Shown here: piece by piece, positions 33,333 through 48,858 of the stretch
Position numbering within the stretch: the first letter of the stretch is position 1
How the letters are laid out: every line of letters starts with the position of its first letter
Origin: Escherichia coli
GTDB lineage: Bacteria; Pseudomonadota; Gammaproteobacteria; Enterobacterales; Enterobacteriaceae
Length of the DNA: 64,000 nucleotides
Assembly (NCBI RefSeq): GCF_003018235.1
Contig: NZ_CP027437.1
Strand: one strand, 5' to 3'
Program-made: the position numbers and the translations under genes
Notes under the pieces: model-generated
What the model saw: only the letters and a program-made list of their open reading frames with translations
The model's database searches: none
What the model was told of the DNA's origin: nothing

Positions 33333-33342
33333 TCTTCCTGAA

Positions 33343-33370
33343 AATGCCCGGTCCTGGCGATCGGGCATTT
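33343..33370. terminator. Stem-loop between convergent pitB and yghT (aatgcccg-N12-cgggcatt)
   Basis: 8-bp perfect stem followed by tccattttt. Confidence 0.55.
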
Positions 33371-33380
33371 CCATTTTTGA

Positions 33381-34073
33381 CTAGTGATACCCACGCGCGG
33401 TCATAAAATCCGTAATCGCTTTTTCTGCATCAACCAGTACCTTTTCCAGTGGCTGATTGGCGTCGATATCAACCAGTTGTGCACCACCAAAGGTTAACTG
33501 TGGCGTTATGGCTATCTTTCTTGCCAGCGATTCCCTTTTGTGGTCAGGCTTACGCGCGCAGGCCACGTCTAGATCGACATTGAGTTTGATGACCAGATCA
33601 GGTTTATGGCTCGCCATCCAGTGAAACGCTTTACGTTCCTGGCTTGCCAGCCATGAGACAAAACGACCACCTTCAATGTTAGGTGGGAACACTGTACCAT
33701 CGTAAGCGCCAGGAATTTGGTCCTGAGGATAACGGTCGGTTAGAACAATTAACCCGCGACGACGACAGGCAAGCATATGACGAAAGCGCAGTAAGCGACG
33801 GGCGACAAACGCTGTAATTACCAGCGCCGGAACAGGGCCAGGCAATTTTTTTGCTGTTTTCACCTGATTTCGTTCAATTGTTTTATGTAAGGATTTTCCC
33901 ATCAACGGTAATTTTGTCACTGCACGACCGACATTTCCGGCCTGTTTTCCTAAATGAACTCTTTCGGCTGCACCATATTTTTCGACAACGGTAATGAGAT
34001 GTTCACACACCGTTGACTTGCCTGAACCATCGCTACCAATAACGGCAATTAATGGAGGTGTTATTGACTGCAT
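33381..34073 (-). CDS. yghT: P-loop NTPase, kinase-like; paralogue of YghS and YghR
   Basis: 230-aa ORF; Walker [10 protein letters not shown]; shared C-terminal motif RKPDH with YghS/YghR. Confidence 0.8.
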
Positions 34074-34246
34074 GAATATATCCTTTAATTTAAATATCCA
34101 TTAAAAATATTTATTTGGTTAATATGTTTTTATGAAAGCGTAATTCAGGTCAATGTCACAATTAACCATTGTCACAATAAGGTTGAACGGATATTCTGAG
34201 CACGGACCACGTAATATTCAATACATTATTTGCTGCCGGGTTTTTC

Positions 34247-34960
34247 GTGAATCAACGTAATATGTCAATAATTAATTCCACGCCAGTGCGTGTTATTGCC
34301 ATTGTAGGATGTGATGGTTCAGGTAAATCGACCCTCACGGCAAGCCTGGTAAATGAACTGGCAGCAAGAATGCCAACAGAACACATTTATCTCGGGCAAT
34401 CGTCCGGGCGAATTGGCGAATGGATTTCACAGCTCCCTGTTATTGGCGCACCTTTTGGGCGTTATTTGCGAAGTAAAGCGGCACATGTGCACGAAAAGCC
34501 CTCAGCACCGCCTGGCAATATTACTGCGCTGGTTATCTATCTGCTTTCCTGCTGGCGGGCGTACAAGTTTCGCAAAATGTTGTGTAAAAGCCAGCAAGGC
34601 TATCTGCTCATCACCGACCGCTACCCGCAGGTTGAAGTGCCGGGTTTTCGCTTTGATGGCCCGCAATTGGCAAAAACCACGGGCGGTAACGGTTGGATAA
34701 AAATGTTAAGGCAGCGCGAGCTGAAGCTGTACCAATGGATGGCGTCTTATTTGCCCGTATTGTTGATTCGTCTTGGCATTGATGAACAAACCGCGTTTGC
34801 GCGTAAACCTGACCACCAACTGGCAGCGTTACAGGAAAAAATCGCCGTTACGCCGCAACTGACATTCAATGGCGCAAAGATCCTTGAACTGGATGGTCGG
34901 CAACCAGCCGATGAAATTATGCAAGCGTCACTACGCGCAATTCACGCCGCGCTTTCCTGA
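34247..34960 (+). CDS. yghS: P-loop NTPase, kinase-like; paralogue of YghT and YghR
   Basis: 237-aa ORF; Walker A GCDGSGKST. Confidence 0.8.
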   Translation: MNQRNMSIINSTPVRVIAIVGCDGSGKSTLTASLVNELAARMPTEHIYLGQSSGRIGEWISQLPVIGAPFGRYLRSKAAHVHEKPSAPPGNITALVIYLLSCWRAYKFRKMLCKSQQGYLLITDRYPQVEVPGFRFDGPQLAKTTGGNGWIKMLRQRELKLYQWMASYLPVLLIRLGIDEQTAFARKPDHQLAALQEKIAVTPQLTFNGAKILELDGRQPADEIMQASLRAIHAALS

Positions 34961-34991
34961 TCACCAAAATGGATAGGGGATGATTTAACGA

Positions 34992-35748
34992 ATGGATGCA
35001 CTACAAACACAAACTGTTAAGAGTACAACCGCGCCGCAGCCCAACTACATTCCGGGGCTGATTGCGGTGGTCGGGTGTGATGGCACCGGTAAATCCACGC
35101 TGACCACCGACCTGGTGAAATCGCTGCAACAACACTGGCAAACCGAGCGGCGCTATCTGGGGCTGCTCTCCGGCGAAGACGGCGACAAAATCAAACGATT
35201 GCCGTTGGTTGGCGTCTGGCTGGAACGGCGGCTGGCGGCCAAATCCTCGAAAACCCAAAGCATGAAAACCAAATTTCCAGCGCTATGGGCGGCGGTGATT
35301 ATGTACTGCTTCTCGCTGCGAAGAATGGCGAATCTACGCAAGGTTCAGCGACTGGCGCAAAGTGGCGTTCTGGTGGTCAGCGATCGCTTCCCGCAGGCTG
35401 AAATTTCGGGCTTTTATTATGACGGACCGGGGATCGGCGTCGAACGTGCGACCGGGAAAATCAGCATGTTTCTGGCGCAGCGCGAACGGCGTTTATACCA
35501 ACAAATGGCGCTACCGTCCTGAATTAATCATTCGCCTGGGCATTGATATTGATACTGCCATCTCCCGCAAGCCTGACCATGACTATGCCGAGCTGCAGGA
35601 CAAAATCGGCGTCATGTCGACGATTGGCTATAACGGCACAAAAATTCTTGAGATTGATTCCAGAGCGCCTTACAGCGAGGTGCTGGAACAGGCACAGAAG
35701 GCGGTTTCTCTGGTTGCCATCGTTTCTGACCGCCGAAGTTTAACTTAA
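34992..35748 (+). pseudogene. yghR: P-loop NTPase YghR interrupted by a frameshift near 35511 (two ORF pieces, 34992-35522 and frame +1 to 35748)
   Basis: Alignment to YghS/YghT (…LYQWMASYLP… / …FHWMASHKP…) shows the frame changing after QQMA; the repaired product would be 252 aa. Confidence 0.7.
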
Positions 35749-35793
35749 GGCAGGCGGGATACTTTTTACTATCAACGATAAGGTCAGGCTGAA

Positions 35794-37143
35794 TTGGCGG
35801 GTTTTAACATCAAACATTGGTTTGCAGATGGCGCGTTTCGCACCATTATTCGCAATAGCGCCTGGTTAGGCTCCAGTAATGTCGTGAGCGCCTTGCTGGG
35901 TCTGTTGGCGCTCTCGTGTGCCGGTAAAGGGATGACGCCCGCCATGTTTGGCGTACTGGTGATTGTGCAATCGTACGCCAAGTCGATCAGCGATTTTATT
36001 AAGTTTCAGACATGGCAGCTGGTGGTTCAGTACGGAACGCCAGCCTTGACCAACAATAATCCGCAGCAATTTCGCAATGTTGTCTCATTTTCCTTCTCGC
36101 TGGATATCGTCAGCGGCGCGGTGGCGATTGTCGGCGGCATTGCCTTACTGCCATTCCTTTCCCATTCATTAGGTCTGGATGACCAAAGCTTTTGGCTGGC
36201 GGCGCTCTATTGCACGCTCATTCCTTCAATGGCTTCCTCCACGCCGACCGGCATTCTGCGTGCGGTAGATCGCTTTGATTTGATTGCTGTACAGCAGGCG
36301 ACGAAACCTTTTCTGCGCGCAGCGGGGAGCGTCGTAGCCTGGTATTTTGACTTTGGTTTTGCGGGTTTTGTTATTGCCTGGTACGTGTCGAATCTGGTTG
36401 GCGGCACCATGTACTGGTGGTTTGCCGCGCGCGAATTACGCCGCAGAAATATCCATAACACCTTCAAATTGAATCTGTTTGAGTCTGCCCGACACATTAA
36501 AGGCGCGTGGAGTTTTGTCTGGTCAACCAACATTGCCCACTCCATCTGGTCGGCACGTAACTCGTGCAGCACAGTGCTGGTGGGGATCGTGTTAGGACCC
36601 GCTGCCGCCGGGTTATTTAAAATCGCCATGACATTCTTCGACGCCGCCGGAACGCCAGCGGGTTTACTGGGTAAAAGTTTTTACCCAGAGGTGATGCGTT
36701 TAGATCCGCGCACCACCAGACCGTGGTTGTTAGGCGTGAAGTCCGGTTTACTGGCGGGCGGAATCGGTATTCTGGTGGCGCTCGCGGTGTTGATCGTCGG
36801 CAAGCCGCTCATTTCGCTGGTGTTTGGCGTTAAGTATCTCGAAGCGTATGACCTGATTCAGGTGATGCTGGGCGCAATTGTGATTTCGATGCTGGGCTTC
36901 CCACAGGAGTCATTGCTATTGATGGCGGGAAAACAGCGCGCTTTTCTCGTGGCGCAAACCATCGCCTCAATCGGCTACATCGTATTGCTGTTCATGTTCT
37001 GTCATCTGTTTGGCGTGCTGGGGGCTGCATTTGCTTACTTCGCTGGGCAATGTCTGGATGTGGTGTTCTCGCTAATTCCAACCTTAAAGGCATTTTTTCA
37101 GCGCCATTCCTTGCTTTATAACGCAGCCGGAGAGAAATCCTGA
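35794..37143 (+). CDS. yghQ: Multi-pass membrane protein of the MOP/Wzx-like flippase superfamily; start codon uncertain
   Basis: 449-aa ORF (maximal), highly hydrophobic; K-12 annotation is shorter, to my recollection. Confidence 0.7.
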   Translation: MAGFNIKHWFADGAFRTIIRNSAWLGSSNVVSALLGLLALSCAGKGMTPAMFGVLVIVQSYAKSISDFIKFQTWQLVVQYGTPALTNNNPQQFRNVVSFSFSLDIVSGAVAIVGGIALLPFLSHSLGLDDQSFWLAALYCTLIPSMASSTPTGILRAVDRFDLIAVQQATKPFLRAAGSVVAWYFDFGFAGFVIAWYVSNLVGGTMYWWFAARELRRRNIHNTFKLNLFESARHIKGAWSFVWSTNIAHSIWSARNSCSTVLVGIVLGPAAAGLFKIAMTFFDAAGTPAGLLGKSFYPEVMRLDPRTTRPWLLGVKSGLLAGGIGILVALAVLIVGKPLISLVFGVKYLEAYDLIQVMLGAIVISMLGFPQESLLLMAGKQRAFLVAQTIASIGYIVLLFMFCHLFGVLGAAFAYFAGQCLDVVFSLIPTLKAFFQRHSLLYNAAGEKS

Positions 37144-37967
37144 TGATGAGAAAATATTTCCCGCTTGAGGCTAGCGAGCGTCTATTTGTTGCGATTGAAG
37201 AAGATGATGTCGTTGATGCACAGGTCAGTTTGCCGCCGACTATCGCACTAAGTTGTACCACCGAAATCATCCATGATAATTACGCGTTATGCCTGAAATT
37301 CTGGCTGGATGGTGTTAATCGTCAGGAGCTACTGCGTTTAATCCGCAAACAGGCGAAAGGCGATGAGCTGACGACAGACGAGCGCAAAAAGTATAAATAC
37401 ATGCGAGCGCGCTACAAGCATCTGCGCTTTGCGCAACGGCTGTATTTAAAGAAGCATCAGGCCGGATTTTTATTCGGCAAAACGACCGTTTTTTTGGGGC
37501 GTTTTCAGGACGGCTTTCGTAACGGTAAGAAAAATATTGTGTCGTATTACGGCAACCTGTTACGGGTTTATTTAAGCTCTCCGGTCTGGTCGTTGGTGAA
37601 CTATTCATTACGCCATAGCCAGTTAGAAAGCGTAAGCGGTTTTATTGCCTATCGGCAAAAGCAAATGCATACCCTGAAAGAGATAATTGCCAAACCGCGA
37701 CTAACTGGCAGGGAATTTCATGATGTGCGAAAAATCATCAGCCAGCAGGTTTCTTATTACGACACCCTAAGATCGCTTGATCCTGAAAATAAAGAGGCGT
37801 TACAGATTTCCCGCTTCCTCGCCGCCATTAATGGCCTGATGGGGGATAAACACGACGACATGGTGGCGGATGATATGGAAAACCGCCAGTCGTATGATGC
37901 ACCGGTGGCGCTGGATAGCGATATTCGCCAGCGCTTAGAGCTGCTGATTTCGCGTTTTCCGCTATAA
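37143..37967 (+). CDS. Hypothetical protein, 274 aa, no recognisable domain
   Basis: Start overlaps the yghQ stop (TGATG); charged, non-membrane. Confidence 0.55.
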   Translation: MMRKYFPLEASERLFVAIEEDDVVDAQVSLPPTIALSCTTEIIHDNYALCLKFWLDGVNRQELLRLIRKQAKGDELTTDERKKYKYMRARYKHLRFAQRLYLKKHQAGFLFGKTTVFLGRFQDGFRNGKKNIVSYYGNLLRVYLSSPVWSLVNYSLRHSQLESVSGFIAYRQKQMHTLKEIIAKPRLTGREFHDVRKIISQQVSYYDTLRSLDPENKEALQISRFLAAINGLMGDKHDDMVADDMENRQSYDAPVALDSDIRQRLELLISRFPL

Positions 37968-37975
37968 CCGGAGCA

Positions 37976-38539
37976 ATGATGTCATCTCGTTTGATTATTG
38001 CGCTGATTATCATGCTCTTAGCCCCGGGTGTGCAGGCACACAATTTCGTCACTGGCAAAACGGTTACCCCTGTTTATATCCAGGAAGGCGGCGAGCTGCT
38101 TCTGAATAGCGACGACGAAATTCACTACCAAAAGTGGAACAGCACACAGCTGGCGGGAAAAGTTCGCATTATTCAGTATATCGCCGGGCGTAAGTCGGCG
38201 AAGAAAAAGAACTCACTGTTAATTAAAGCGGTTGAAGCGGCAAACTTTCCGCAGGATCGTTTTCAGCCCACCACCATTGTGAACACCGATGATGCCATTT
38301 TTGGTACTGGCTATTTTGTCGTTGGCAAAATCGAAAAAAATAAACGCCGCTATCCGTGGGCGCAATTCGTTATTGACGGCAATGGACAGGGACGCGTTGC
38401 CTGGCGGTTGCCGGAGCAGAGTTCAACCATTCTGGTGCTGAATAAAGCCGGGCAAATTCAGTGGGCAAAGGACGGCAGCCTGACGCCGGAAGAGGTAGAA
38501 CATGTCATTGCGCTGGCGCAGAAACTGATCAATGAATAA
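37976..38539 (+). CDS. YtfJ-family periplasmic protein
   Basis: 187-aa ORF; signal peptide MMSSRLIIALIIMLLAPGVQA; conserved TTIVNTDDAI and WAKDGSLTPEEV blocks recalled from E. coli YtfJ. Confidence 0.55.
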   Translation: MMSSRLIIALIIMLLAPGVQAHNFVTGKTVTPVYIQEGGELLLNSDDEIHYQKWNSTQLAGKVRIIQYIAGRKSAKKKNSLLIKAVEAANFPQDRFQPTTIVNTDDAIFGTGYFVVGKIEKNKRRYPWAQFVIDGNGQGRVAWRLPEQSSTILVLNKAGQIQWAKDGSLTPEEVEHVIALAQKLINE

Positions 38540-38569
38540 AAAATTCAAAGGATTGAGGGCGTTAGTGAG

Positions 38570-39640
38570 ATGAAGCTGGTTGAACACTACATCATGCGTG
38601 GTACGCGCCGTCTGGTGCTGATTATCGTCGGTTTTCTGATCTTTATTTTCGCCAGCTACTCCGCACAGCGTTATCTGACCGAAGCGGCAAATGGGACATT
38701 AGCTCTTGATGTTGTGCTGGATATTGTTTTCTACAAGGTGCTGATTGCACTGGAGATGTTGTTACCTGTTGGACTGTATGTGTCAGTTGGCGTGACGCTA
38801 GGGCAGATGTATACCGACTCGGAAATTACCGCTATTTCTGCGGCGGGGGGCAGTCCGGGACGCTTGTACAAAGCCGTTCTTTATCTGGCGATACCGCTAA
38901 GTATTTTTGTCACCCTTCTGTCGATGTATGGTCGTCCGTGGGCTTATGCGCAGATTTATCAACTGGAGCAACAGTCACAGTCGGAGCTGGATGTTCGCCA
39001 GTTGCGGGCAAAGAAATTTAACACTAACGATAACGGACGAATGATCCTTTCGCAGACGGTTGATCAGGATAATAATCGCCTGACTGACGCGCTGATTTAT
39101 ACTTCTACTGCCAATCGAACCCGCATTTTCCGCGCCCGTTCGGTTGATGTGGTTGACCCATCACCTGAGAAACCGACCGTTATGTTGCATAACGGGACCG
39201 CCTATCTTCTCGATCATCAGGGGCGTGACGACAACGAACAGATCTACCGTAATCTGCAATTACATCTGAATCCGCTGGATCAAAGCCCTAACGTCAAACG
39301 CAAAGCAAAATCGGTCACGGAGCTGGCGCGCTCCGCCTTTCCTGCCGATCATGCCGAACTGCAATGGCGACAAAGCCGTGGCCTGACAGCATTGTTGATG
39401 GCGCTGCTGGCCATTTCATTAAGTCGGGTAAAACCGCGGCAAGGGCGATTTTCAACGTTATTGCCACTGACGTTGCTGTTTATTGCCATTTTTTATGGCG
39501 GCGACGTCTGCCGTACGCTGGTGGCTAACGGCGCGATTCCCCTCATTCCTGGTTTGTGGTTAGTACCCGGACTCATGCTAATGGGCCTGCTGATGCTGGT
39601 CGCACGCGACTTCTCATTGCTGCAGAAATTTTCCCGATGA
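38570..39640 (+). CDS. LptF-like permease (YjgP/YjgQ family)
   Basis: 356-aa ORF; N-terminal TM helices, periplasmic beta-jellyroll-like insert, C-terminal TM helices. Confidence 0.65.
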   Translation: MKLVEHYIMRGTRRLVLIIVGFLIFIFASYSAQRYLTEAANGTLALDVVLDIVFYKVLIALEMLLPVGLYVSVGVTLGQMYTDSEITAISAAGGSPGRLYKAVLYLAIPLSIFVTLLSMYGRPWAYAQIYQLEQQSQSELDVRQLRAKKFNTNDNGRMILSQTVDQDNNRLTDALIYTSTANRTRIFRARSVDVVDPSPEKPTVMLHNGTAYLLDHQGRDDNEQIYRNLQLHLNPLDQSPNVKRKAKSVTELARSAFPADHAELQWRQSRGLTALLMALLAISLSRVKPRQGRFSTLLPLTLLFIAIFYGGDVCRTLVANGAIPLIPGLWLVPGLMLMGLLMLVARDFSLLQKFSR

Positions 39641-40716
39641 ATGTTTTCAGTCGCTATTTAATCCGTCATCTCTTTCTCGGTTTTGCCGCCGCCGCAGGGC
39701 TATTGCTGCCGCTTTTTACCACCTTCAACCTGATTAACGAACTGGATGATGTCAGCCCGGGCGGTTATCGCTGGACTCAGGCGGTGCTGGTGGTGCTGAT
39801 GACCTTACCGCGTACACTGGTCGAACTTTCGCCGTTTATCGCATTATTGGGAGGGATTGTTGGCCTGGGGCAGTTATCGAAAAACAGTGAGCTTACCGCC
39901 ATTCGCAGCACGGGGTTTTCTATCTTCCGTATTGCACTAGTGGCGCTGGTTGCCGGGATATTGTGGACTGTTTCGTTAGGCGCGATAGATGAGTGGGTGG
40001 CGTCGCCATTGCAGCAACAGGCGCTGCAAATCAAATCGACTGCCACCGCGTTGGGGGAGGACGATGACATTACCGGCAATATGCTTTGGGCCAGGCGCGG
40101 TAATGAATTTGTGACGGTGAAATCGCTGAACGAGCAGGGCCAGCCTGTGGGCGTGGAGATATTTCATTATCGCGACGATCTCTCGCTCGAATCCTACATT
40201 TTTGCACGCAGTGCCTCCATTGAAGACGACAAAACATGGATCCTGCATGGTGTGAATCATAAAAAATGGTTGAATGGCAAGGAAACGCTGGAAACATCAG
40301 ATAATCTTGCCTGGCAATCGGCCTTCACCAGTATGAATCTTGAAGAGTTATCGATGCCGGGAAATACTTTTTCTGTCCGTCAACTTAATCATTACATCCA
40401 TTATTTGCAGGAAACTGGGCAACCCAGCAGCGAATACCGCCTTGCACTGTGGGAAAAACTGGGACAACCCATCCTGACCCTGGCGATGATTTTGCTGGCT
40501 GTGCCGTTTACCTTTAGTGCCCCGCGTTCGCCTGGGATGGGTAGCCGTCTCGCTGTAGGCGTCATCGTGGGCTTACTTACCTGGATCAGCTATCAAATCA
40601 TGGTCAATCTGGGATTGCTATTTGCGTTGAGCGCACCTGTTACCGCGCTCGGTTTACCGGTAGCGTTTGTGCTGGTGGCGTTGAGCCTGGTGTATTGGTA
40701 TGACAGACAACATTAA
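39637..40716 (+). CDS. LptG-like permease (YjgP/YjgQ family), paired with the upstream gene
   Basis: 359 aa from ATG at 39637 (MNVFSRYLIRHLF), overlapping the upstream stop (ATGA). Confidence 0.65.
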   Translation: MNVFSRYLIRHLFLGFAAAAGLLLPLFTTFNLINELDDVSPGGYRWTQAVLVVLMTLPRTLVELSPFIALLGGIVGLGQLSKNSELTAIRSTGFSIFRIALVALVAGILWTVSLGAIDEWVASPLQQQALQIKSTATALGEDDDITGNMLWARRGNEFVTVKSLNEQGQPVGVEIFHYRDDLSLESYIFARSASIEDDKTWILHGVNHKKWLNGKETLETSDNLAWQSAFTSMNLEELSMPGNTFSVRQLNHYIHYLQETGQPSSEYRLALWEKLGQPILTLAMILLAVPFTFSAPRSPGMGSRLAVGVIVGLLTWISYQIMVNLGLLFALSAPVTALGLPVAFVLVALSLVYWYDRQH

Positions 40717-40746
40717 ACCCGCCGTGGCGCAACACCACAGCGGGCT
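40717..40746. terminator. Hairpin between the convergent permease and lipid-synthesis operons
   Basis: cccgccgtgg-N7-ccacagcggg, 10-bp stem with one mismatch. Confidence 0.4.
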
Positions 40747-40750
40747 CACA

Positions 40751-41923
40751 TTACTGCTTCAGAGTAGCGAACGCTTGAATGATGGCATCAATTTGCTCAC
40801 GACTGTGGGCAGCGTTTACGCTACAGCGCAGCAGCGTGATGCCTGCAGGCGCGGCAGGTGGCAGGATAAGATTCACATAAACGCCCAGCGAAATAAGCTC
40901 GCGCCAGATGCGTAAACCTTCCTCTTTCGAACCGATTATTACTGGCACTACCGGGCTAATATGTGAACTTAACTCATAATCCAGTTTTTGCAGACCGTCA
41001 TACAGATGGTTGGCATTATCCATCAGCTTTTGCCGCAACTCTGGTTGTGAGACAATGGTTCTTAACGACGAGCGCACGGTCGCAATGCAGGACGGAGAAG
41101 GAGAGGCGGTAAAAATATACGGGCGGCTGCCGTAGCGCAACACTTCCATCGCTTCCGAACCGACAGCAAAACCGCCAATCGAGGCCAGGCTTTTACTGAA
41201 GGTACCAACGATAATATCCACATCATCTTCAACGCCAACGGCTTCAGCCAGTCCGCGCCCCGTTGCGCCTAACACGCCAAACGAATGCGCTTCATCGACA
41301 ATCAAATAACCACCGAGACGACGTTTGATATCAACAATTTCCGCCAGCGGCGCAACGTCACCGAGCATACTGTAGATGCCTTCAACGATGATAATCGCCT
41401 CTTTTGCCCGTTCACCGAGGCGAACCATGCGCCGTTCCAGATCTTTAGCATCGTTATGGCGGAAACGAATAATTTCCGCGCCACCGAGAGAACAGGCGTC
41501 ATAAATACTGGCGTGGCTGTCGGCATCCAGTAACACCACGGCGTTATGGTCGGCAAGTGCGCTGATGACGCCTAAATTAGCGGTATAACCGGTTGAAAAA
41601 ACGATAGCGGTAGGGCGATTAAAAAACTCGGCGATCTCTTTCTCTAACGCCAGATGCGGCGCATAACTGCCGTTTGCCATACGAGAACCGGTGGTGCCGG
41701 TGCCTTGGGCCGCTAACGCTGCCTGACCTTCGGCGATGGCATCATGATTAAAGGTTAAACCGAGATAATTATTGGTCCCGGCCAGAATCACTTTTTTATT
41801 GCCGATCCGACCTTCGGTGGCGGAATACACTTCATCAATACAGGTGCCAAACGGTGTTAACCCGTTGTCACTAAATTGCAGTCGCTCGCCAGCAAGGCGC
41901 GCATATTTATCGTATAGCCCCAT
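40751..41923 (-). CDS. PLP-dependent alpha-oxoamine synthase, serine palmitoyltransferase-like
   Basis: 390-aa ORF; PLP-lysine motif GTFSKSLASIGG (SPT-like rather than BioF GTFGKA or Kbl GTLGKA) and DADSHAS histidine motif. Confidence 0.75.
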   Translation of the reverse strand: MGLYDKYARLAGERLQFSDNGLTPFGTCIDEVYSATEGRIGNKKVILAGTNNYLGLTFNHDAIAEGQAALAAQGTGTTGSRMANGSYAPHLALEKEIAEFFNRPTAIVFSTGYTANLGVISALADHNAVVLLDADSHASIYDACSLGGAEIIRFRHNDAKDLERRMVRLGERAKEAIIIVEGIYSMLGDVAPLAEIVDIKRRLGGYLIVDEAHSFGVLGATGRGLAEAVGVEDDVDIIVGTFSKSLASIGGFAVGSEAMEVLRYGSRPYIFTASPSPSCIATVRSSLRTIVSQPELRQKLMDNANHLYDGLQKLDYELSSHISPVVPVIIGSKEEGLRIWRELISLGVYVNLILPPAAPAGITLLRCSVNAAHSREQIDAIIQAFATLKQ

Positions 41924-42171
41924 TATTTATTCTCCAGCCATGGAAGTAGTGTTTCCATTAATTGCGCAGGGGTTTTGACATCCAGCAGAATATTAATAGG
42001 AATGGAAATATCGAATCTGTCTTCCAGCATCATTAAGAGATCCATCACTTTGATCGACTCCAGGCCAAGATCGTTGACGAGATCGCTGTCGGGCTTAATT
42101 TCCACACCGTTTTCGACCAAATCCTGTAAACAGGAAAGGATGTAATCCATTACTATTTCACGATTTACCAT
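41923..42171 (-). CDS. Dedicated acyl carrier protein
   Basis: 82-aa acidic ORF with phosphopantetheine-site-like DLGLESIKVMDL; stop overlaps the downstream start. Confidence 0.7.
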   Translation of the reverse strand: MVNREIVMDYILSCLQDLVENGVEIKPDSDLVNDLGLESIKVMDLLMMLEDRFDISIPINILLDVKTPAQLMETLLPWLENK

Positions 42172-42202
42172 AGAAACGTTAACACACCTTTAAACAAGAC
42201 AA

Positions 42203-43117
42203 TCAAAATAGCCCGTTGCGTAATGCGTGTTCCAGGCTAATCCCGGGAAACCAATTAATATCTTCAGAAATACGGTTATTACTTGCCGACCAGTCGGCAT
42301 GAGTTAATTCACGGATTTTCGAACGAGTCAGCATCGGTTCTTTACCCGCCAGACGGCTCAACGCGGTACTGATATCCGCAAGGCAGGTGAGTAGCGGCAG
42401 AGGAATACCGACCATCCGCACGGAACCGCAACGGGCGTCGGCGGCAAGCTGTCTTACGCGTTGCCAGTCATAGCCTCCGGCGACGCCATCGCATAATTCA
42501 TAGGTTTGCGTCTGTACAGTTTCGGCGCTTAACCACTGACCCACTGCTTGCGCAAAATCGGTGACGTGAAGAAAAGAGAGCTGTGTCTCTGGCGTGCCAA
42601 GTCGTGGCAGCAGGCCGCGCAGCATCCAGTCAAACAGCGGTTTTAACTCTTTATCGCCGGGACCATACACGGCTGTCGGGCGAAAAACGCCCAGCGTAAT
42701 TTCATCAGCCATTGCAGTCAGCCGTTGTTCGGCGACGTGTTTGGAATTTGCGTACCAGGAGAGTTCGGGATGGCGCGCCGCCAGCGAAGAGATAAACAGA
42801 AAACGTTGGCAAAAGCCGCTCTCTTTTGCCGCTTGCATCAGGCGCAGGCTGCCGTCAACGTTACAGCGGGTAAAAATCTCTTCTTTGTGTCCGCGCACTT
42901 GTCCGGCGCAATGGACCACCGCGCTGGCTCCGGCAACCAGTTCGCTAAGCGAATGTGTATCTTCCAGCGAACCGCGCACCCAGATGAGATTATCATTGAC
43001 GTGAGCGCGGGCAGTACGCGTCAATGCGCGAACGTGAAAGCCGCGGGCGAGCAGGTTATCGATAATATATTTACCGATAAACCCGGTAGCGCCCGTCACC
43101 GCGACAGTTTGATTCAT
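42203..43117 (-). CDS. NAD(P)-dependent epimerase/dehydratase-fold reductase (extended SDR)
   Basis: 304-aa ORF; Rossmann motif GATGFIG; catalytic YANSK (YxxxK). Confidence 0.7.
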   Translation of the reverse strand: MNQTVAVTGATGFIGKYIIDNLLARGFHVRALTRTARAHVNDNLIWVRGSLEDTHSLSELVAGASAVVHCAGQVRGHKEEIFTRCNVDGSLRLMQAAKESGFCQRFLFISSLAARHPELSWYANSKHVAEQRLTAMADEITLGVFRPTAVYGPGDKELKPLFDWMLRGLLPRLGTPETQLSFLHVTDFAQAVGQWLSAETVQTQTYELCDGVAGGYDWQRVRQLAADARCGSVRMVGIPLPLLTCLADISTALSRLAGKEPMLTRSKIRELTHADWSASNNRISEDINWFPGISLEHALRNGLF

Positions 43118-44850
43118 GCCAGGGATTCCTGCACATGAAGGCTTGCAGCATAACGTTTTTTCGCTTCCGCACGGGCAGGCTTGCCGGAGGACGTTCGGGG
43201 AATACTGTGGGGCGGCAACAGATCGATAGCCGCTGTTACGCCAAATTCGCTTTGGATCCGTGCTACCAGTGCGTGGATAAGCTGCCCACGACGTTCTTCG
43301 TCGCTGATCCTACACTGGATCTGCAGAATGATTTTTTCCTGGGCGGTAACAAAAGCAATCGCATCGCCAGAATGAATTTCCGGTTCCTGTTCCGCAATAT
43401 ATTCAATATCCTGCGGCCAGATATTACGGCCACGAATAATAATCAGATCTTTAATGCGTCCGGTGACATACAGATAACCGTCCAGCAGATAACCGAGGTC
43501 GCCGGTGTCTAACCAGCCCGTCGCGGCAATCTCGTCTTGTGAAATCTGGTCGCCAAAGTAACCGCTCATCAGGCTAGGGCCGGAGATGCAAATATGGCCT
43601 ACCACACGTTCCGCGACAGGTATACCTGCTTCATTGCGGATTTCAATGCCATGTTCCGGCAACGCTTTACCGCAGTTGACGAAAGTCGATACGGCGCGTG
43701 TTTCAGCATCCGGCGCGACGGCTTTGCCCTGATATTCGAGGATGTCGCGATCCACTTCGTTAACCACAACCCCGGAAGCTTCATCAGAGAAGCTGACAGC
43801 CAGCGCATTTTCTGCCAGTCCGTAGCACGGCATGAAAGTTTTATCGTCAAAGTTGACCTGACGGAAACATTCAGCGAATTGATGGAGTTGTTCTGCGGAG
43901 ATGGGTTCTGCACCAATACCAGCGACGCGCCAGCAGGAAAGATCCAGTTCAGCGAGATCTTTTTCATTCACGCGGCGCTGGCACAATTCATAGCCAAACG
44001 GCGGCGCAACGGAAACGGTGCCGCGATTTTTACTGATCAATTTAAGCCATTGCAGAGGACGCATGGCAAAATCCTGAGTGCGCAAATAATCTACTGAAAG
44101 CTGCGTGGCGACGGGGGGCAGGAGAAAGCCGACCAGTCCCATATCATGGTAGAAAGGCAGCCAGGAGACGCAGCGGTCGCCAGGGCGTAATTTAATGCCA
44201 TCGTGGCTTATAGCACGTAGATTAGCCATCACTTCGCGATGGGTGATAATGACGCCACGGGGAAAACGGGTGCTGCCGGAGGTGTACTGGAGGTAGGCGA
44301 TATCGTTCGGAACTGGACGCTGGAGCGCAACATCGGCTTCCGGTAATGCCTTAAACCAGGCGTGGCTTAAAACATGTAATTCGGGGTTGTTATGCGTAGC
44401 GGCATTGACCAGTGGCAACCACTCATCACCAGTGATAATGGCTGCGGGCTGGCAACTTGCCAGTAAACCCTGCAGTTTGGCGCTCCAGGAATCCCGCTGA
44501 CCGACGCCCATTGGAATCGCCAACGGGACGGCGACTAAGCCGGCATACTGGCAGGAAAAAAAAGCCTCTACGAACCCGCTACTGGTTTCGGCAATCAGCG
44601 CCACGCGATCGCCTTTTTTCAGGTTCAGCGATAACAACCGCTTCGCACCAGCTTCGGCACGCGCTTTTAACGTCTGATATTCCAGTTGATCTTCAAGTTG
44701 GCAACGTCTGTCATAAAAATTCATTCCGGCGCTACTCAGAGCGGCGTAGTCCAAAGCATCAACCAGCGTTGGAAAATCGGCATAGCGCATAGGTAGGGAA
44801 TGCGTAAAGATTTTATTAGACATATACACCACGAAAAAATTGGATATCAA
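43114..44850 (-). CDS. Adenylate-forming acyl-AMP ligase / acyl-ACP synthetase-like enzyme; start uncertain
   Basis: 578-aa ORF; AMP-binding motif YTSGSTRFPRG; 4-nt overlap with the downstream reductase gene. Confidence 0.7.
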   Translation of the reverse strand: MISNFFVVYMSNKIFTHSLPMRYADFPTLVDALDYAALSSAGMNFYDRRCQLEDQLEYQTLKARAEAGAKRLLSLNLKKGDRVALIAETSSGFVEAFFSCQYAGLVAVPLAIPMGVGQRDSWSAKLQGLLASCQPAAIITGDEWLPLVNAATHNNPELHVLSHAWFKALPEADVALQRPVPNDIAYLQYTSGSTRFPRGVIITHREVMANLRAISHDGIKLRPGDRCVSWLPFYHDMGLVGFLLPPVATQLSVDYLRTQDFAMRPLQWLKLISKNRGTVSVAPPFGYELCQRRVNEKDLAELDLSCWRVAGIGAEPISAEQLHQFAECFRQVNFDDKTFMPCYGLAENALAVSFSDEASGVVVNEVDRDILEYQGKAVAPDAETRAVSTFVNCGKALPEHGIEIRNEAGIPVAERVVGHICISGPSLMSGYFGDQISQDEIAATGWLDTGDLGYLLDGYLYVTGRIKDLIIIRGRNIWPQDIEYIAEQEPEIHSGDAIAFVTAQEKIILQIQCRISDEERRGQLIHALVARIQSEFGVTAAIDLLPPHSIPRTSSGKPARAEAKKRYAASLHVQESLA

Positions 44851-45194
44851 AAATAAAATGACAATAATGCGGTGGATTATATAGGCATAAAAGATAAATG
44901 AGATAGTATTTTCATCAGTGTGAAAATGAACATTGATTTAAATAATGAGTTTGAGTTTTTTTGTTTTTATTGTGAATGATATTTAATTTATGAATGTATT
45001 AAGAAGAAGCCTTGTCCGGTCGCCTTAAATCGACAAAAGGCATTGTGGCGCTTCTGTGTAGTCTCTGACCTTATCGTAATCATTAATAAATGCTATTTAT
45101 TCGTCGTTTGTATTCATTGGGTTGATTATTAAGGTGCCGTTCGTTGCTGTTGCAACCTGTTTGTCACCGTTAATTATTTGTTACCCACAGAACT

Positions 45195-46337
45195 ATGGAA
45201 TGCGATCTGCTGATGATTAAAATTGAAAAAGTAATTAATAAAAATGACCTTAAGGCATTTATCGCTTTTCCGTCATCACTTTATCCCGACGATCCAAACT
45301 GGATACCCCCTTTATTCATTGAACGCAACGAGCATTTGTCTGCGAAAAATCCGGGGACGGACCATATCATCTGGCAGGCGTGGGTGGCAAAAAAAGCCGG
45401 GCAGATAGTTGGGCGAATTACCGCGCAAATCGATACCTTGCACCGTGAGCGTTACGGTGAAGATACCGGTCATTTCGGCATGATTGACGCCATTGATGAT
45501 CCGCAGGTTTTTGCCGCGTTGTTTGGCGCAGCGGAAGCGTGGTTGAAGTCACAAGGAGCAAGTAAGATCAGCGGGCCTTTCAGCCTGAATATCAATCAGG
45601 AAAGCGGATTACTGATTGAAGGTTTCGATACACCACCCTGTGCGATGATGCCGCACGGTAAACCGTGGTATGCCGCGCATATTGAACAATTGGGTTATCA
45701 CAAAGGCATTGATTTACTGGCGTGGTGGATGCAGCGAACCGATCTCACTTTCTCTCCGGCGCTAAAAAAACTGATGGATCAGGTGCGTAAGAAGGTGACC
45801 ATTCGCTGCATCAATCGCCAGCGGTTTGCCGAAGAGATGCAGATCCTGCGTGAGATTTTCAACTCTGGCTGGCAGCACAACTGGGGATTTGTGCCGTTTA
45901 CCGAACATGAATTCGCGACCATGGGCGATCAACTTAAATATCTGGTGCCGGACGATATGATCTACATCGCTGAGATTGATTCTGCACCCTGCGCGTTTAT
46001 TGTCGGCTTGCCAAACATCAACGAGGCGATTGCCGATCTGAACGGATCGCTCTTTCCCTTCGGCTGGGCAAAATTGCTGTGGCGTTTAAAAGTCAGCGGT
46101 GTGCGAACTGCGCGAGTACCGCTGATGGGCGTGCGGGACGAGTATCAGTTTAGCCGCATCGGCCCGGTGATTGCGCTGTTATTGATTGAAGCCTTACGCG
46201 ATCCGTTTGCCCGCCGGAAGATCGATGCGCTGGAAATGTCATGGATCCTCGAAACCAATACAGGCATGAATAACATGCTGGAACGCATTGGGGCGGAGCC
46301 GTACAAGCGTTACCGATTGTATGAAAAGCAGATTTAA
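45195..46337 (+). CDS. yghO: GNAT-fold acyltransferase-like protein, intact
   Basis: 380-aa ORF, divergent from the lipid operon across an AT-rich region; GNAT assignment is from recollection of this family, not a motif scan. Confidence 0.6.
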   Translation: MECDLLMIKIEKVINKNDLKAFIAFPSSLYPDDPNWIPPLFIERNEHLSAKNPGTDHIIWQAWVAKKAGQIVGRITAQIDTLHRERYGEDTGHFGMIDAIDDPQVFAALFGAAEAWLKSQGASKISGPFSLNINQESGLLIEGFDTPPCAMMPHGKPWYAAHIEQLGYHKGIDLLAWWMQRTDLTFSPALKKLMDQVRKKVTIRCINRQRFAEEMQILREIFNSGWQHNWGFVPFTEHEFATMGDQLKYLVPDDMIYIAEIDSAPCAFIVGLPNINEAIADLNGSLFPFGWAKLLWRLKVSGVRTARVPLMGVRDEYQFSRIGPVIALLLIEALRDPFARRKIDALEMSWILETNTGMNNMLERIGAEPYKRYRLYEKQI

Positions 46338-46343
46338 TACCAG

Positions 46344-47108
46344 CTAACTCTGGTTCATCTCCAGCGGCACCGCCGAGCGAATCAAATGGTGGCCTTCCAG
46401 CTCGATATCGTGGAGATTCTTTTTCACGGTCCGCACATGATCGCGTGCTGCGCGCTGGGCGACGTGCGGCAGCCGCTGCAACACCGCGTTGTAGATCCGC
46501 GCATGCTGGCGATCGATCTGCTTTTTTTGCTGTGGTCGATGGTAGAGATTATTTACGCTGGCAAACACTGAATTAAACATCAGGTCGGTCAATGATTGCA
46601 GTGTAAACACCAACACCTGATTGTGAGAAGCCTGACAAATGGCGAGATGGAAAGCGTGATCCAACTGCGCATGTTCGATCAGCGAAATCTCTTTGTTGTT
46701 CTCACTGGCGGCGAGCATTTTTTCATAACAGCGGGTTATCACAACAAAATCAGCCTGCGTTCCCAGCGTTGCCGCCAGCCTTGCCGATTCGCCCTCCAGC
46801 AATGCGCGAACGTCGAGCAGATCATACAGCGTTCGCGGCTGCGTACTGAACAGATGGATCAGCGGGCTGGTGTCCTGCACCCGATTAAGCCGTGCGACAC
46901 GAGAATCGCGACCCTGCGCCGTTTCAATAATCCCGCGCCCGCGCAGCACGGTCAGCCCTTCACGCAGTGCGGAGCGTGAGAAGCCGAGCTTTTCACACAG
47001 TCGACGTTCCGAGGGAAGCGGCTGACCGACCTTCAGTACGCCGTCGATAATTAACCGTTCGATACTCTCTGCAACCACTTCGCAAATAGGGCGACGTTCA
47101 TCTTTCAT
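46344..47108 (-). CDS. glcC: GntR/FadR-family transcriptional activator of the glc operon
   Basis: 254 aa from ATG at 47108 (MKDERRPICEVVAESIE); divergent from glcD. Confidence 0.9.
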   Translation of the reverse strand: MKDERRPICEVVAESIERLIIDGVLKVGQPLPSERRLCEKLGFSRSALREGLTVLRGRGIIETAQGRDSRVARLNRVQDTSPLIHLFSTQPRTLYDLLDVRALLEGESARLAATLGTQADFVVITRCYEKMLAASENNKEISLIEHAQLDHAFHLAICQASHNQVLVFTLQSLTDLMFNSVFASVNNLYHRPQQKKQIDRQHARIYNAVLQRLPHVAQRAARDHVRTVKKNLHDIELEGHHLIRSAVPLEMNQS

Positions 47109-47358
47109 TCCCGGACCTCGTGCACAGGTAGGACCAATTTTTCTGTTCTTGACTCGCAAAACACGCACATCACGTAAGTGATTATGTTACATCAATTTAA
47201 CATTAAGTTAACCAAGACAAGGTCACAGAGCTGGAAAAAAAATGGTCTGACCGGTAGCTAAAGAGATAGACGAAAACGAAAAGCCCGCTTAATAACTGTT
47301 CACAGAAGCAGCGCGCAAAAATCAGCTGCCACACAACACAACAAAGCGAAGCCTACTC

Positions 47359-48858
47359 ATGAGCATCTTGTACGAAGAGCGTCTTGATGGCGCTTTACCC
47401 GATGTCGACCGCACATCGGTACTGATGGCACTGCGTGAGCATGTCCCTGGACTGGAGATCCTGCATACCGATGAGGAGATCATTCCTTACGAGTGTGACG
47501 GGTTGAGCGCGTATCGCACGCGTCCATTACTGGTTGTTCTGCCTAAGCAAATGGAACAGGTGACAGCGATTCTGGCTGTTTGTCACCGCCTGCGTGTACC
47601 GGTGGTGACCCGTGGTGCAGGCACCGGGCTTTCTGGTGGCGCGCTGCCGCTGGAAAAAGGTGTGTTGTTGGTGATGGCGCGCTTTAAAGAGATCCTCGAC
47701 ATTAACCCCGTTGGTCGCCGCGCGCGCGCGCAGCCGGGCGTGCGTAACCTGGCGATCTCCCAGGCCGTTGCGCCGCATAATCTCTATTACGCGCCGGATC
47801 CTTCCTCACAAATCGCCTGTTCAATTGGCGGCAATGTGGCGGAAAATGCCGGTGGCGTCCACTGCCTGAAATATGGTCTGACCGTACATAACCTGCTGAA
47901 AATTGAAGTGCAAACGCTGGACGGCGAGGCGCTGACGCTGGGATCGGACGCGCTGGATTCGCCTGGTTTTGACCTGCTGGCGCTGTTCACCGGATCGGAA
48001 GGTATGCTCGGCGTGACCACCGAAGTAACGGTGAAGCTGTTGCCGAAGCCGCCCGTGGCGCGGGTTCTGTTAGCCAGCTTTGACTCGGTAGAAAAAGCCG
48101 GACTTGCAGTTGGTGACATCATCGCCAATGGCATTATCCCCGGCGGGCTGGAGATGATGGATAACCTGTCGATCCGCGCGGCGGAAGATTTTATTCATGC
48201 CGGTTATCCCGTCGACGCCGAAGCGATTTTGTTATGCGAGCTGGACGGCGTGGAGTCTGACGTACAGGAAGACTGCGAGCGGGTTAACGACATCTTGTTA
48301 AAAGCGGGCGCGACTGACGTCCGTCTGGCACAGGACGAAGCAGAGCGCGTACGTTTCTGGGCCGGTCGCAAAAATGCGTTCCCTGCGGTAGGACGAATCT
48401 CCCCGGATTACTACTGCATGGATGGCACCATCCCGCGCCGTGCCCTGCCTGGCGTACTGGAAGGCATTGCCCGTTTATCGCAGCAATATGATTTACGTGT
48501 TGCTAACGTCTTTCATGCCGGAGACGGCAACATGCACCCGTTAATCCTTTTCGATGCCAACGAACCCGGTGAATTTGCCCGCGCGGAAGAGCTGGGCGGG
48601 AAGATCCTCGAACTCTGCGTTGAAGTTGGCGGCAGCATCAGTGGGGAACATGGCATCGGGCGAGAAAAAATCAATCAAATGTGCGCCCAGTTCAACAGCG
48701 ATGAAATCACGACCTTCCATGCGGTCAAGGCGGCGTTTGACCCCGATGGTTTGCTGAACCCTGGGAAAAACATTCCCACGCTACACCGCTGTGCTGAATT
48801 TGGTGCCATGCATGTGCATCACGGTCATTTACCTTTCCCTGAACTGGAGCGTTTCTGA
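47359..48858 (+). CDS. glcD: Glycolate oxidase FAD-binding subunit
   Basis: 499-aa ORF; FAD-binding PCMH fold. Confidence 0.9.
   Translation: MSILYEERLDGALPDVDRTSVLMALREHVPGLEILHTDEEIIPYECDGLSAYRTRPLLVVLPKQMEQVTAILAVCHRLRVPVVTRGAGTGLSGGALPLEKGVLLVMARFKEILDINPVGRRARAQPGVRNLAISQAVAPHNLYYAPDPSSQIACSIGGNVAENAGGVHCLKYGLTVHNLLKIEVQTLDGEALTLGSDALDSPGFDLLALFTGSEGMLGVTTEVTVKLLPKPPVARVLLASFDSVEKAGLAVGDIIANGIIPGGLEMMDNLSIRAAEDFIHAGYPVDAEAILLCELDGVESDVQEDCERVNDILLKAGATDVRLAQDEAERVRFWAGRKNAFPAVGRISPDYYCMDGTIPRRALPGVLEGIARLSQQYDLRVANVFHAGDGNMHPLILFDANEPGEFARAEELGGKILELCVEVGGSISGEHGIGREKINQMCAQFNSDEITTFHAVKAAFDPDGLLNPGKNIPTLHRCAEFGAMHVHHGHLPFPELERF

What the first reader, a model, noticed from the sequence alone, without database searches (positions are those of the whole stretch)
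40751..44850. Four-gene operon for an acyl-ACP-dependent amino-lipid pathway: acyl-AMP ligase, SDR reductase, dedicated ACP and SPT-like synthase
On the minus strand sit four tightly coupled genes, with 4-nt and 1-nt overlaps: an adenylating acyl-AMP ligase (YTSGSTRFPRG), an NAD(P)-dependent reductase (GATGFIG, YANSK), a small ACP, and a PLP-dependent alpha-oxoamine synthase. The synthase has a GTFSKS PLP-lysine motif, which looks like serine palmitoyltransferase rather than the housekeeping BioF or Kbl. This gene set is what bacteria such as Caulobacter and Bacteroides use to make sphingoid bases and ceramides; CqsA-type amino-ketone signals and capnine-type sulfonolipids are alternatives. 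E. coli is not regarded as making such lipids, and I know of no characterisation of this locus.
Basis: partly seen in the sequence, partly recalled or inferred. Interest (0 to 1): 0.85.

Follow-up and report, generated by a model that had tools for sequence, protein, structure and literature searches.

The report
Known E. coli sphingolipid (ceramide) gene cluster
These four genes are the already published and partly biochemically tested E. coli operon that loads a fatty acid onto a dedicated carrier protein and joins it to serine to start ceramide synthesis, so the reading is right but the locus is not new.

Summary
The four minus-strand genes are real and tightly coupled. The synthase is a serine palmitoyltransferase (SPT): NCBIfam NF047599 scores 595 bits against a cut-off of 500, while BioF, Kbl, ALAS and CqsA models all fall below their cut-offs.

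The statement that the locus is uncharacterised is wrong. The window proteins are 96-100% identical to E. coli BL21(DE3) ECD_02851-02854. Padilla-Gómez et al. 2022 (PMC9386255) studied these as AasR (acyl-ACP synthetase), Epi/CerR, AcpR and SPT. [quoted passage not shown] The ligase is also the crystallised "EcFAAL" (PDB 3PBK), which loads fatty acid onto its ACP and rejects CoA (PMC8460268). RefSeq already names the gene spt, and the locus is in 4059 of 5426 complete E. coli genomes. K-12 lost it through an IS5-associated deletion.

The functional unit is larger than four genes. The divergent yghO is the published ceramide-synthase homologue. The adjacent LptF/LptG paralogues match the sphingolipid exporters described in Caulobacter.

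Still open: no paper I could search reports a native E. coli sphingolipid, and several conserved neighbours have no known function.

Verdict: already known, low interest.

The parts
43114..44823 (-). aasR / EcFAAL: fatty acyl-AMP ligase that acts as a specialised acyl-ACP synthetase. The start is uncertain: ATG 44823 or ATG 44790. The finding used TTG 44850.
   Evidence: NF006624 scores 867 bits against a cut-off of 600. PDB 3PBK matches at 1268 bits over the full length. It is 97.7% identical to BL21 ECD_02851 and has a 4-aa deletion near the C-terminus. Published function: PMC9386255 and PMC8460268.
42203..43117 (-). epi / cerR: extended-SDR, NDUFA9-like reductase, the predicted 3-keto reductase of the pathway.
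   Evidence: Pfam Epimerase PF01370, E = 4e-23. The best PDB relatives include complex-I 39-kDa/NDUFA9 subunits. It carries GATGFIG and Y122-x3-K126. It is 96.4% identical to ECD_02852. ECD_02852 is 34% identical to Caulobacter CC_1164, E = 7e-38. Enzyme activity has not been shown for the E. coli protein.
41923..42171 (-). acpR: specialised acyl carrier protein, with Ser39 in DLGLES as the predicted 4'-phosphopantetheine site.
   Evidence: It gives only sub-threshold ACP model hits but is 100% identical to ECD_02853. That protein incorporated labelled beta-alanine and supported 3-oxo-sphinganine formation with its cognate AasR and SPT.
40751..41923 (-). spt: serine palmitoyltransferase, a soluble enzyme of the alpha/beta/gamma-proteobacterial type.
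   Evidence: NF047599 scores 594.9 bits against a cut-off of 500, and all other alpha-oxoamine-synthase models fall below their cut-offs. Sphingomonas SPT structures score 373 bits against at most 201 bits for any non-SPT. H137, D210, H213, K244 and R366 are conserved. It is 98.7% identical to the assayed ECD_02854.
40714..40748 (.). 16-bp hairpin with 9 G-C pairs in the 34-nt gap between the convergent lptG paralogue and spt. Probably a two-way terminator.
   Evidence: sequence. The scan as a whole found no more sites than shuffled sequence, so function is inferred from position and stem length only.
44824..45194 (.). AT-rich (32% G+C) divergent intergenic region between aasR and yghO. Presumed to hold the promoters and control region of both transcription units.
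   Evidence: No convincing sigma-70 consensus stands above the shuffled background. The role is inferred.
45195..46337 (+). yghO: homologue of the Caulobacter N-acyltransferase/bacterial ceramide synthase (CC_1154 = aca/bCerS), and the fifth dihydroceramide gene.
   Evidence: It is 99.7% identical to ECD_02850. ECD_02850 is 44% identical to CC_1154, E = 1e-107, and is drawn as part of the cluster in PMC9386255. It has no Pfam, NCBIfam or PDB sequence match. dN/dS is 0.04 against Citrobacter.
38570..40716 (+). lptF and lptG paralogues (38570-39640 and 39637-40716), the candidate sphingolipid-specific permease pair.
   Evidence: TIGR04407 scores 319 bits and TIGR04408 scores 304 bits. They are conserved next to spt in Hafnia and Citrobacter. 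The Caulobacter LptF2/G2 are required for sphingolipid transport and bind LptB (preprint 10.64898/2026.04.12.717747; PMC11324152). The role in E. coli is inferred.
35794..38539 (+). Three conserved neighbours: yghQ, a MOP-flippase-like membrane protein (35794-37143); a 274-aa soluble basic protein with no family (37143-37967); and a YtfJ-family protein (37976-38539).
   Evidence: NCBIfam and Pfam results; PDB search. The genes are syntenic with spt in Hafnia and Citrobacter, with dN/dS 0.09-0.16. Their membership of the pathway rests on conserved linkage only.

Best explanation
This is the E. coli copy of the proteobacterial ('rhodobacterial') sphingolipid pathway. Step 1: AasR/EcFAAL adenylates a free fatty acid and transfers it to the phosphopantetheine arm of the dedicated carrier AcpR, not to CoA. 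This has been shown for the E. coli proteins. Step 2: the PLP enzyme SPT condenses L-serine with acyl-AcpR, releasing CO2, to give 3-oxo-sphinganine. This was shown for the 98.7%-identical BL21 enzyme by co-migration on TLC. Step 3: the divergently encoded YghO adds the second acyl chain. This is inferred from 44% identity to the Caulobacter enzyme. Step 4: the NDUFA9-like SDR reduces the 3-keto group to give dihydroceramide. This is inferred from 34% identity. The order acylation-then-reduction is the Klein-lab model; reduction-then-acylation is the alternative. Step 5: the lipid is probably flipped and extracted by YghQ and the LptF/LptG paralogues, using the housekeeping LptB. This is inferred by analogy with Caulobacter. 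K-12 lacks the pathway because an IS5-associated deletion removed everything from the 3' part of yghQ to the start of yghO.
For: Family placement: NF047599 SPT scores 595 bits against a cut-off of 500, and NF006624 FAAL scores 867 against 600. In the PDB ranking, SPT scores 373 bits, cysteate acyltransferase 201, Kbl 199, BioF 182, ALAS 168 and CqsA 122. The catalytic residues are intact. Identity to the experimentally studied BL21(DE3) proteins: AcpR 100%, SPT 98.7%, AasR 97.7%, Epi 96.4%, YghO 99.7%. Published experiments on those proteins: AcpR carries 4'-phosphopantetheine. [quoted passage not shown] SPT_Ec prefers acyl-AcpR over acyl-CoA or acyl-AcpP (PMC9386255). EcFAAL has a crystal structure (3PBK), and EcFAAL loads C12 onto holo-EcACP (PMC8460268). 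RefSeq annotates the gene as spt. The module is conserved in Hafnia and Citrobacter under strong purifying selection, with dN/dS 0.03-0.20. The K-12 deletion is shown.
Against: No native sphingolipid, long-chain base or ceramide from E. coli turned up in the searchable literature. Extracts of BL21(DE3) carrying only an empty vector formed no 3-oxo-sphinganine. BL21(DE3) holds the chromosomal locus, so it appears to be silent or very weakly expressed in the laboratory. Product identity in the E. coli experiments rests on TLC co-migration. YghO and the reductase from E. coli have not been assayed. The chain length and head group of any final product are unknown.
Confidence: 0.9

Rival explanations
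1. The locus is a cryptic, transcriptionally silent relic in E. coli. The enzymes work when over-expressed, but wild cells never make the lipid in meaningful amounts.
For: Empty-vector BL21(DE3) extracts gave no 3-oxo-sphinganine although the strain has the chromosomal genes. The control region is AT-rich, 32% G+C, which is typical of H-NS-silenced DNA (inference). K-12 lost the locus without a known phenotype. The neighbouring yghR carries a 2-bp frameshift in this window.
Against: All the genes in the block except yghR are intact here. The block is present at 80% coverage or more in 4059 of 5426 complete genomes. The genes are conserved in Hafnia, Citrobacter, Pseudocitrobacter and E. albertii, with dN/dS 0.03-0.20 at near-saturated dS. 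That requires continued selection for function.
Confidence: 0.15
2. The synthase makes a different amino-lipid: a sulfonolipid precursor from cysteate, a 1-deoxy base from alanine or glycine, or a CqsA-type amino-ketone signal, rather than a sphingoid base.
For: Alpha-oxoamine synthases are promiscuous. PMC9386255 notes additional unidentified SPT-dependent products. The whole SPT subgroup has a hydrophobic residue where Sphingomonas SPT has Arg378, a residue that from memory contacts the serine carboxylate.
Against: The CqsA model scores 218 bits against a cut-off of 428. Cysteate acyltransferase and CqsA structures score 201 and 122 bits against 373 for SPT. The BL21 enzyme incorporated L-[14C]serine into a product migrating like 3-oxo-sphinganine. 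A ceramide-synthase homologue and a keto-reductase homologue are encoded alongside, as in proven ceramide producers.
Confidence: 0.04
3. The four genes are a housekeeping biotin or threonine-catabolism module, with a BioF- or Kbl-like synthase using pimeloyl or acetyl thioesters.
For: Older annotations call homologues '8-amino-7-oxononanoate synthase'.
Against: BioF TIGR00858 scores 332 bits against a cut-off of 426. Kbl NF005394 scores 294 against 460. The partner ligase is a long-chain fatty acyl-AMP ligase crystallised with lauroyl-adenylate.
Confidence: 0.01

Closest known systems
E. coli BL21(DE3) ECD_02850-ECD_02854 (yghO/aca, aasR, epi, acpR, spt), Padilla-Gómez et al. 2022, Front Microbiol, PMC9386255
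   Same: It is the same chromosomal locus between glcC and pitB, with the same gene order and overlaps. Protein identities are 96.4-100%.
   Different: There are only allelic differences: 5 substitutions in SPT, none at catalytic residues, and 11 in the reductase, with Y122 and K126 kept. The ligase has a 4-aa deletion (QKAY) near its C-terminus. The neighbouring yghR is frameshifted in this window.
Caulobacter crescentus sphingolipid locus CC_1152-CC_1168 (CCNA_01212-01226)
   Same: It has the five dihydroceramide genes (aasR, epi/cerR, acpR, spt, aca/bCerS), LptF/LptG paralogues and a putative flippase in one cluster.
   Different: Identities are only 34-53%. The E. coli block has no recognisable cpgABC head-group genes and no LptC paralogue. 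Instead it carries a YtfJ-family protein, a 274-aa orphan protein and three P-loop kinase-like proteins, YghR/S/T. Caulobacter demonstrably makes ceramide phosphoglycerate. No E. coli product is known.
EcFAAL, PDB 3PBK (Zhang et al. 2011; Patil et al. 2021, PMC8460268)
   Same: It is the same protein, matching over the full length at 1268 bits. It forms acyl-adenylate and transfers the acyl group to its ACP while rejecting CoA.
   Different: There are a few substitutions and the 4-aa C-terminal deletion. The FAAL passages read did not mention sphingolipid synthesis.
Sphingomonas paucimobilis and S. wittichii SPT (PDB 2JG2, 2X8U)
   Same: Both are soluble PLP-dependent SPTs. The match is 373 bits over the full length, with His, Asp, His, Lys and Arg390-equivalent residues conserved.
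   Different: The E. coli enzyme belongs to the NF047599 subgroup (595 bits) rather than the alphaproteobacterial model NF047603, where it scores 427 bits against a cut-off of 670. The position of Arg378 is Leu, as in the rest of that subgroup.
BioF, Kbl, ALAS, CqsA and Bacteroidetes cysteate acyltransferase (other alpha-oxoamine synthases)
   Same: They share the fold and the PLP chemistry.
   Different: All score well below SPT and below their curated cut-offs.

Membership tests
Proteobacterial serine palmitoyltransferase (NCBIfam NF047599) | Whole-protein score above the curated equivalog cut-off, and higher than for sister alpha-oxoamine synthase models. | tested here: met
   It scores 594.9 bits against a cut-off of 500. 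BioF scores 332 against 426, Kbl 294 against 460, CqsA 218 against 428 and ALAS 216 against 339.
Proteobacterial serine palmitoyltransferase (NCBIfam NF047599) | PLP Schiff-base lysine and the catalytic His/Asp/His/Arg set of bacterial SPT. | tested here: met
   H137, D210, H213, K244 and R366 align with S. paucimobilis H159, D231, H234, K265 and R390, and are invariant among nine subgroup members.
Proteobacterial serine palmitoyltransferase (NCBIfam NF047599) | Condenses L-serine with a long-chain acyl thioester to give 3-oxo-sphinganine. | not testable with these tools
   This is published for the 98.7%-identical BL21 enzyme, based on L-[14C]serine incorporation and TLC co-migration.
Proteobacterial serine palmitoyltransferase (NCBIfam NF047599) | The gene is immediately preceded by a dedicated acp gene (acpR-spt operon). 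| tested here: met
   The stop of acpR and the start of spt overlap by 1 nt. The same arrangement is found in Hafnia and Citrobacter.
Fatty acyl-AMP ligase / specialised acyl-ACP synthetase AasR | Score above the FAAL model cut-off and identity with a structurally defined FAAL. | tested here: met
   NF006624 scores 867 bits against a cut-off of 600. 3PBK matches at 1268 bits.
Fatty acyl-AMP ligase / specialised acyl-ACP synthetase AasR | Transfers the acyl group to holo-ACP and not to CoA. | not testable with these tools
   This is published for EcFAAL-EcACP. AasR_Ec together with AcpR_Ec and SPT_Ec gives 3-oxo-sphinganine in vivo.
Specialised acyl carrier protein AcpR | A small carrier protein with a conserved serine that carries 4'-phosphopantetheine. 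| tested here: met
   It has 82 aa and Ser39 in DLGLES. It is 100% identical to ECD_02853, which incorporated beta-alanine. Housekeeping ACP models score below their cut-offs, as expected for a specialised ACP.
Bacterial ceramide reductase CerR / Epi (NDUFA9-like extended SDR) | Rossmann TGxxGxxG and catalytic YxxxK motifs, with NDUFA9-like relatives. | tested here: met
   It has GATGFIG and Y122/K126, matches Pfam Epimerase, and NDUFA9 subunits are among its top PDB matches.
Bacterial ceramide reductase CerR / Epi (NDUFA9-like extended SDR) | Reduces the 3-keto group of oxo-ceramide or 3-oxo-sphinganine. | not testable with these tools
   There is only published orthology to CC_1164, at 34% identity and E = 7e-38. 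I found no assay of the E. coli protein.
CqsA-type autoinducer synthase | Score above the NF005526 cut-off. | tested here: not met
   It scores 217.9 bits against a cut-off of 428. CqsA structures score 122 bits.
Sulfonolipid (capnine) cysteate acyltransferase | Closer to cysteate-C-fatty acyltransferase than to SPT. | tested here: not met
   It scores 201 bits to PDB 28eh against 373 bits to SPT.

The most novel reading that the evidence does not exclude
Most wild E. coli, together with Hafnia, Citrobacter amalonaticus, Pseudocitrobacter and E. albertii, natively make an outer-membrane sphingolipid that has never been described. Its head group would be built by the conserved but unassigned neighbours: the 274-aa orphan protein, the YtfJ-like protein and the P-loop kinase-like YghR/S/T. 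The lipid would be exported by YghQ and an LptB2-LptF2G2 machine. The field has missed it because K-12 deleted the locus and because it is silent in standard culture.
Probability: 0.3. Interest if true: 0.6.

Novelty: already known. Interest (0 to 1): 0.12.

Why it matters
As a discovery it adds nothing. The genes are named in RefSeq, three of the four products have been assayed and one has been crystallised. One point is still worth keeping in view. Three quarters of sequenced E. coli carry an intact, selectively maintained ceramide pathway with its own Lpt-like exporter. Yet I found no report of the lipid in E. coli, nor of when the operon is expressed or what it does for the cell or its host. 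Several conserved genes in the same block have no assigned function.

Tried and rejected
- The Rfam scan of 33000-47500 found nothing.
- The promoter and terminator consensus scan found no more sites than shuffled sequence. Only the 16-bp hairpin between spt and lptG stands out.
- YghO has no Pfam, NCBIfam or PDB sequence match, so its assignment rests on published orthology. I ran no further search on it.
- The 274-aa neighbour has no family or structural relative by sequence.
- I asked whether YghR/S/T could be ceramide kinases. The Caulobacter ceramide kinase CpgB is an LCB5/DAG-kinase-type enzyme, a different family from these P-loop proteins, so the idea was dropped.
- I checked whether Leu at the position of Sphingomonas SPT Arg378 is an E. 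coli oddity. It is typical of the whole NF047599 subgroup.
- Literature searches for a native E. coli or enterobacterial sphingolipid found none. One apparent hit concerned Bacteroides SPT.
- The Nature Chemical Biology paper on bacterial ceramide synthesis is not held.
- I did not run the genome or metagenome collection scans. The published orthology tables and two cheap context look-ups already answered the question.

Full report
**Observation**

The window is E. coli chromosome in the pitB-yghT-...-yghO-glcC-glcDEF region.
- synthase, 40751-41923
- carrier protein, 41923-42171
- reductase, 42203-43117
- ligase, 43114-44850 as the longest ORF

The ligase and reductase overlap by 4 nt (ATGA). 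The carrier and synthase overlap by 1 nt (TAATG). A 31-nt gap precedes the carrier gene. All four quoted motifs are present in the translations.

The only correction concerns the ligase start. TTG 44850 is merely the longest ORF. ATG 44823 matches the N-terminus of the crystallised protein and the family model. RefSeq uses ATG 44790.

**What the proteins are**

- **Synthase.** It passes the curated NCBIfam equivalog for serine palmitoyltransferase (NF047599, 594.9 bits, cut-off 500). It fails the models for BioF, Kbl, CqsA and ALAS. Against solved structures, Sphingomonas SPTs score about 373 bits. The best non-SPT scores are cysteate acyltransferase 201, Kbl 199, BioF 182, ALAS 168 and CqsA 122. 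H137, D210, H213, K244 and R366 correspond to the catalytic H159, D231, H234, K265 and R390 of the S. paucimobilis enzyme. They are invariant among nine members of the subgroup.
- **Ligase.** It passes the fatty acyl-AMP ligase model (867 bits, cut-off 600). It is essentially the protein crystallised as 'EcFAAL', PDB 3PBK (1268 bits over the full length).
- **Reductase.** It is an extended SDR of the Epimerase family with GATGFIG and Y122-x3-K126. Complex-I NDUFA9 subunits are among its closest solved relatives. The same relationship is published for the bacterial ceramide reductase CerR (PMC11087976).

**The locus is already characterised**

Padilla-Gómez et al. 2022 (PMC9386255) worked on E. 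coli BL21(DE3) ECD_02850-02854. These are yghO/aca, aasR, epi, acpR and spt. I fetched that region and compared proteins:

| Protein | Identity to BL21(DE3) |
|---|---|
| AcpR | 100% |
| SPT | 98.7% |
| AasR | 97.7% |
| Epi | 96.4% |
| YghO | 99.7% |

The paper makes four points:
- AcpR_Ec carries 4'-phosphopantetheine.
- AasR_Ec works with its own AcpR but not with the Caulobacter one.
- SPT_Ec prefers acyl-AcpR over acyl-CoA or acyl-AcpP.

Its Table S2 gives the orthology to the genetically proven Caulobacter genes:
- spt: 53% identity
- aasR: 42% identity
- yghO versus CC_1154: 44% identity, E = 1e-107
- epi versus CC_1164: 34% identity, E = 7e-38

Independently, Patil et al. 2021 (PMC8460268) showed that EcFAAL loads fatty acid onto holo-EcACP and rejects CoA. 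RefSeq already names the gene spt. The 8.5-kb block is present at 80% coverage or more in 4059 of 5426 complete E. coli genomes. Homologues annotated as SPT occur in E. albertii, Pseudocitrobacter, Citrobacter amalonaticus and Hafnia.

**Why E. coli is 'not regarded' as a sphingolipid producer**

In a K-12-type genome an IS5 element sits between a truncated yghQ and yghO. Everything between them is missing, including all four genes of the finding. In addition, BL21(DE3) extracts with an empty vector made no 3-oxo-sphinganine, so the chromosomal copy appears silent in laboratory culture. The divergent control region, 44824-45194, is only 32% G+C. I found no paper reporting a native E. coli sphingolipid.

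**The real unit is larger than the finding**

yghO, transcribed divergently, is the published fifth dihydroceramide gene. Convergent with spt, and separated from it by a 16-bp hairpin, lie more genes:
- LptF and LptG paralogues (319 and 304 bits)
- a YtfJ-family protein
- a 274-aa protein with no family
- the flippase-like YghQ
- three P-loop proteins, YghR, YghS and YghT

The whole block from yghO to yghT, followed by a pitB-type phosphate-transporter gene, keeps its order in Hafnia and Citrobacter amalonaticus. The genes beyond yghO differ between the two. Every gene shows strong purifying selection, with dN/dS 0.03-0.20 at near-saturated dS.

The Caulobacter sphingolipid locus likewise contains LptF2, LptG2 and a flippase (PMC11324152). 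A 2026 preprint shows that LptF2/G2 are needed for sphingolipid transport, bind the housekeeping LptB, and are common in alpha- and gammaproteobacterial sphingolipid loci. So this linkage is also already described.

**Mechanism and level of proof**

- **Shown for the E. coli proteins:** fatty acid to acyl-AMP to acyl-AcpR by AasR, then acyl-AcpR plus L-serine to 3-oxo-sphinganine by SPT. Product identity rests on TLC.
- **Inferred from orthology:** N-acylation by YghO and keto-reduction by the SDR, in an order still debated.
- **Inferred by analogy:** flipping and export by YghQ and LptB2F2G2.
- **Unknown:** chain length in vivo, head group, regulation and physiological role.

**Verdict**

The biochemical interpretation is correct. 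The claim of novelty is not. This is an annotated, published and partly assayed locus, so it scores low. The residual interest lies in the missing native product and in the unassigned conserved neighbours. Both are known open questions rather than discoveries made here.

Noticed in passing
window 34992-35748 (indel at 35511/35512): yghR, a P-loop 'ATP-binding protein' of 252 aa in BL21, carries a 2-bp deletion here relative to BL21(DE3) and strain 300444. The deletion splits it into two overlapping ORFs. It is either a pseudogene in this strain or a sequencing error.
   Followed up: yes
L004 3738-7103 (K-12-type strain gb37) versus window about 36860-45235: In the K-12 lineage an IS5 element lies between a C-terminally truncated yghQ and yghO. 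The whole sphingolipid and Lpt-paralogue segment is absent, which explains why the model strain lacks the pathway.
   Followed up: partly
L005 4570-5226 (Hafnia): In Hafnia a 4'-phosphopantetheinyl transferase gene (PF17837 + PF01648) lies about 240 bp from yghO at the edge of the conserved block. It is a candidate dedicated activator of AcpR. There is no such gene at the equivalent place in E. coli or Citrobacter.
   Followed up: no
window 33381-34073 (yghT) and 34247-34960 (yghS); L003 29889-30647 (yghR): RefSeq calls YghS and YghT 'dTMP kinase', but their matches to the dTMP kinase models score only 24-32 bits against cut-offs of 83-193. The name looks like over-annotation of a divergent P-loop kinase-like family that is syntenic with the sphingolipid genes in three genera.
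   Followed up: partly
window 37143-37967: A 274-aa soluble, basic protein has no Pfam, NCBIfam or PDB sequence relative. It is nevertheless conserved in position between yghQ and the YtfJ-like gene in E. coli, Hafnia and Citrobacter, with dN/dS about 0.1. It is an unassigned member of the block.
   Followed up: partly
window 43114-43160 (C-terminus of the ligase): The ligase lacks four residues (QKAY) near its C-terminus compared with BL21 and the 3PBK construct. The deletion is in frame and lies outside the catalytic core.
   Followed up: no
window 40751-41923, residue 354 of SPT: The position of Arg378 in Sphingomonas SPT is Leu here. From memory, Arg378 contacts the serine carboxylate. This position is hydrophobic in all nine aligned sequences, seven of which (incl. 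this one) pass the NF047599 cut-off; two representatives score just below it. Arg390 (R366 here) is invariant. The difference may relate to use of acyl-ACP rather than acyl-CoA.
   Followed up: partly
proteins P0047 and P0126: A 'eukaryotic' database entry (P0047, 443 aa, PP-binding + aminotransferase domains) is 98% identical to this SPT. It is probably E. coli contamination with the ACP and SPT genes merged. Separately, a 794-aa representative (P0126) has a 53%-identical SPT domain in its C-terminal half, suggesting natural fusion proteins elsewhere.
   Followed up: no
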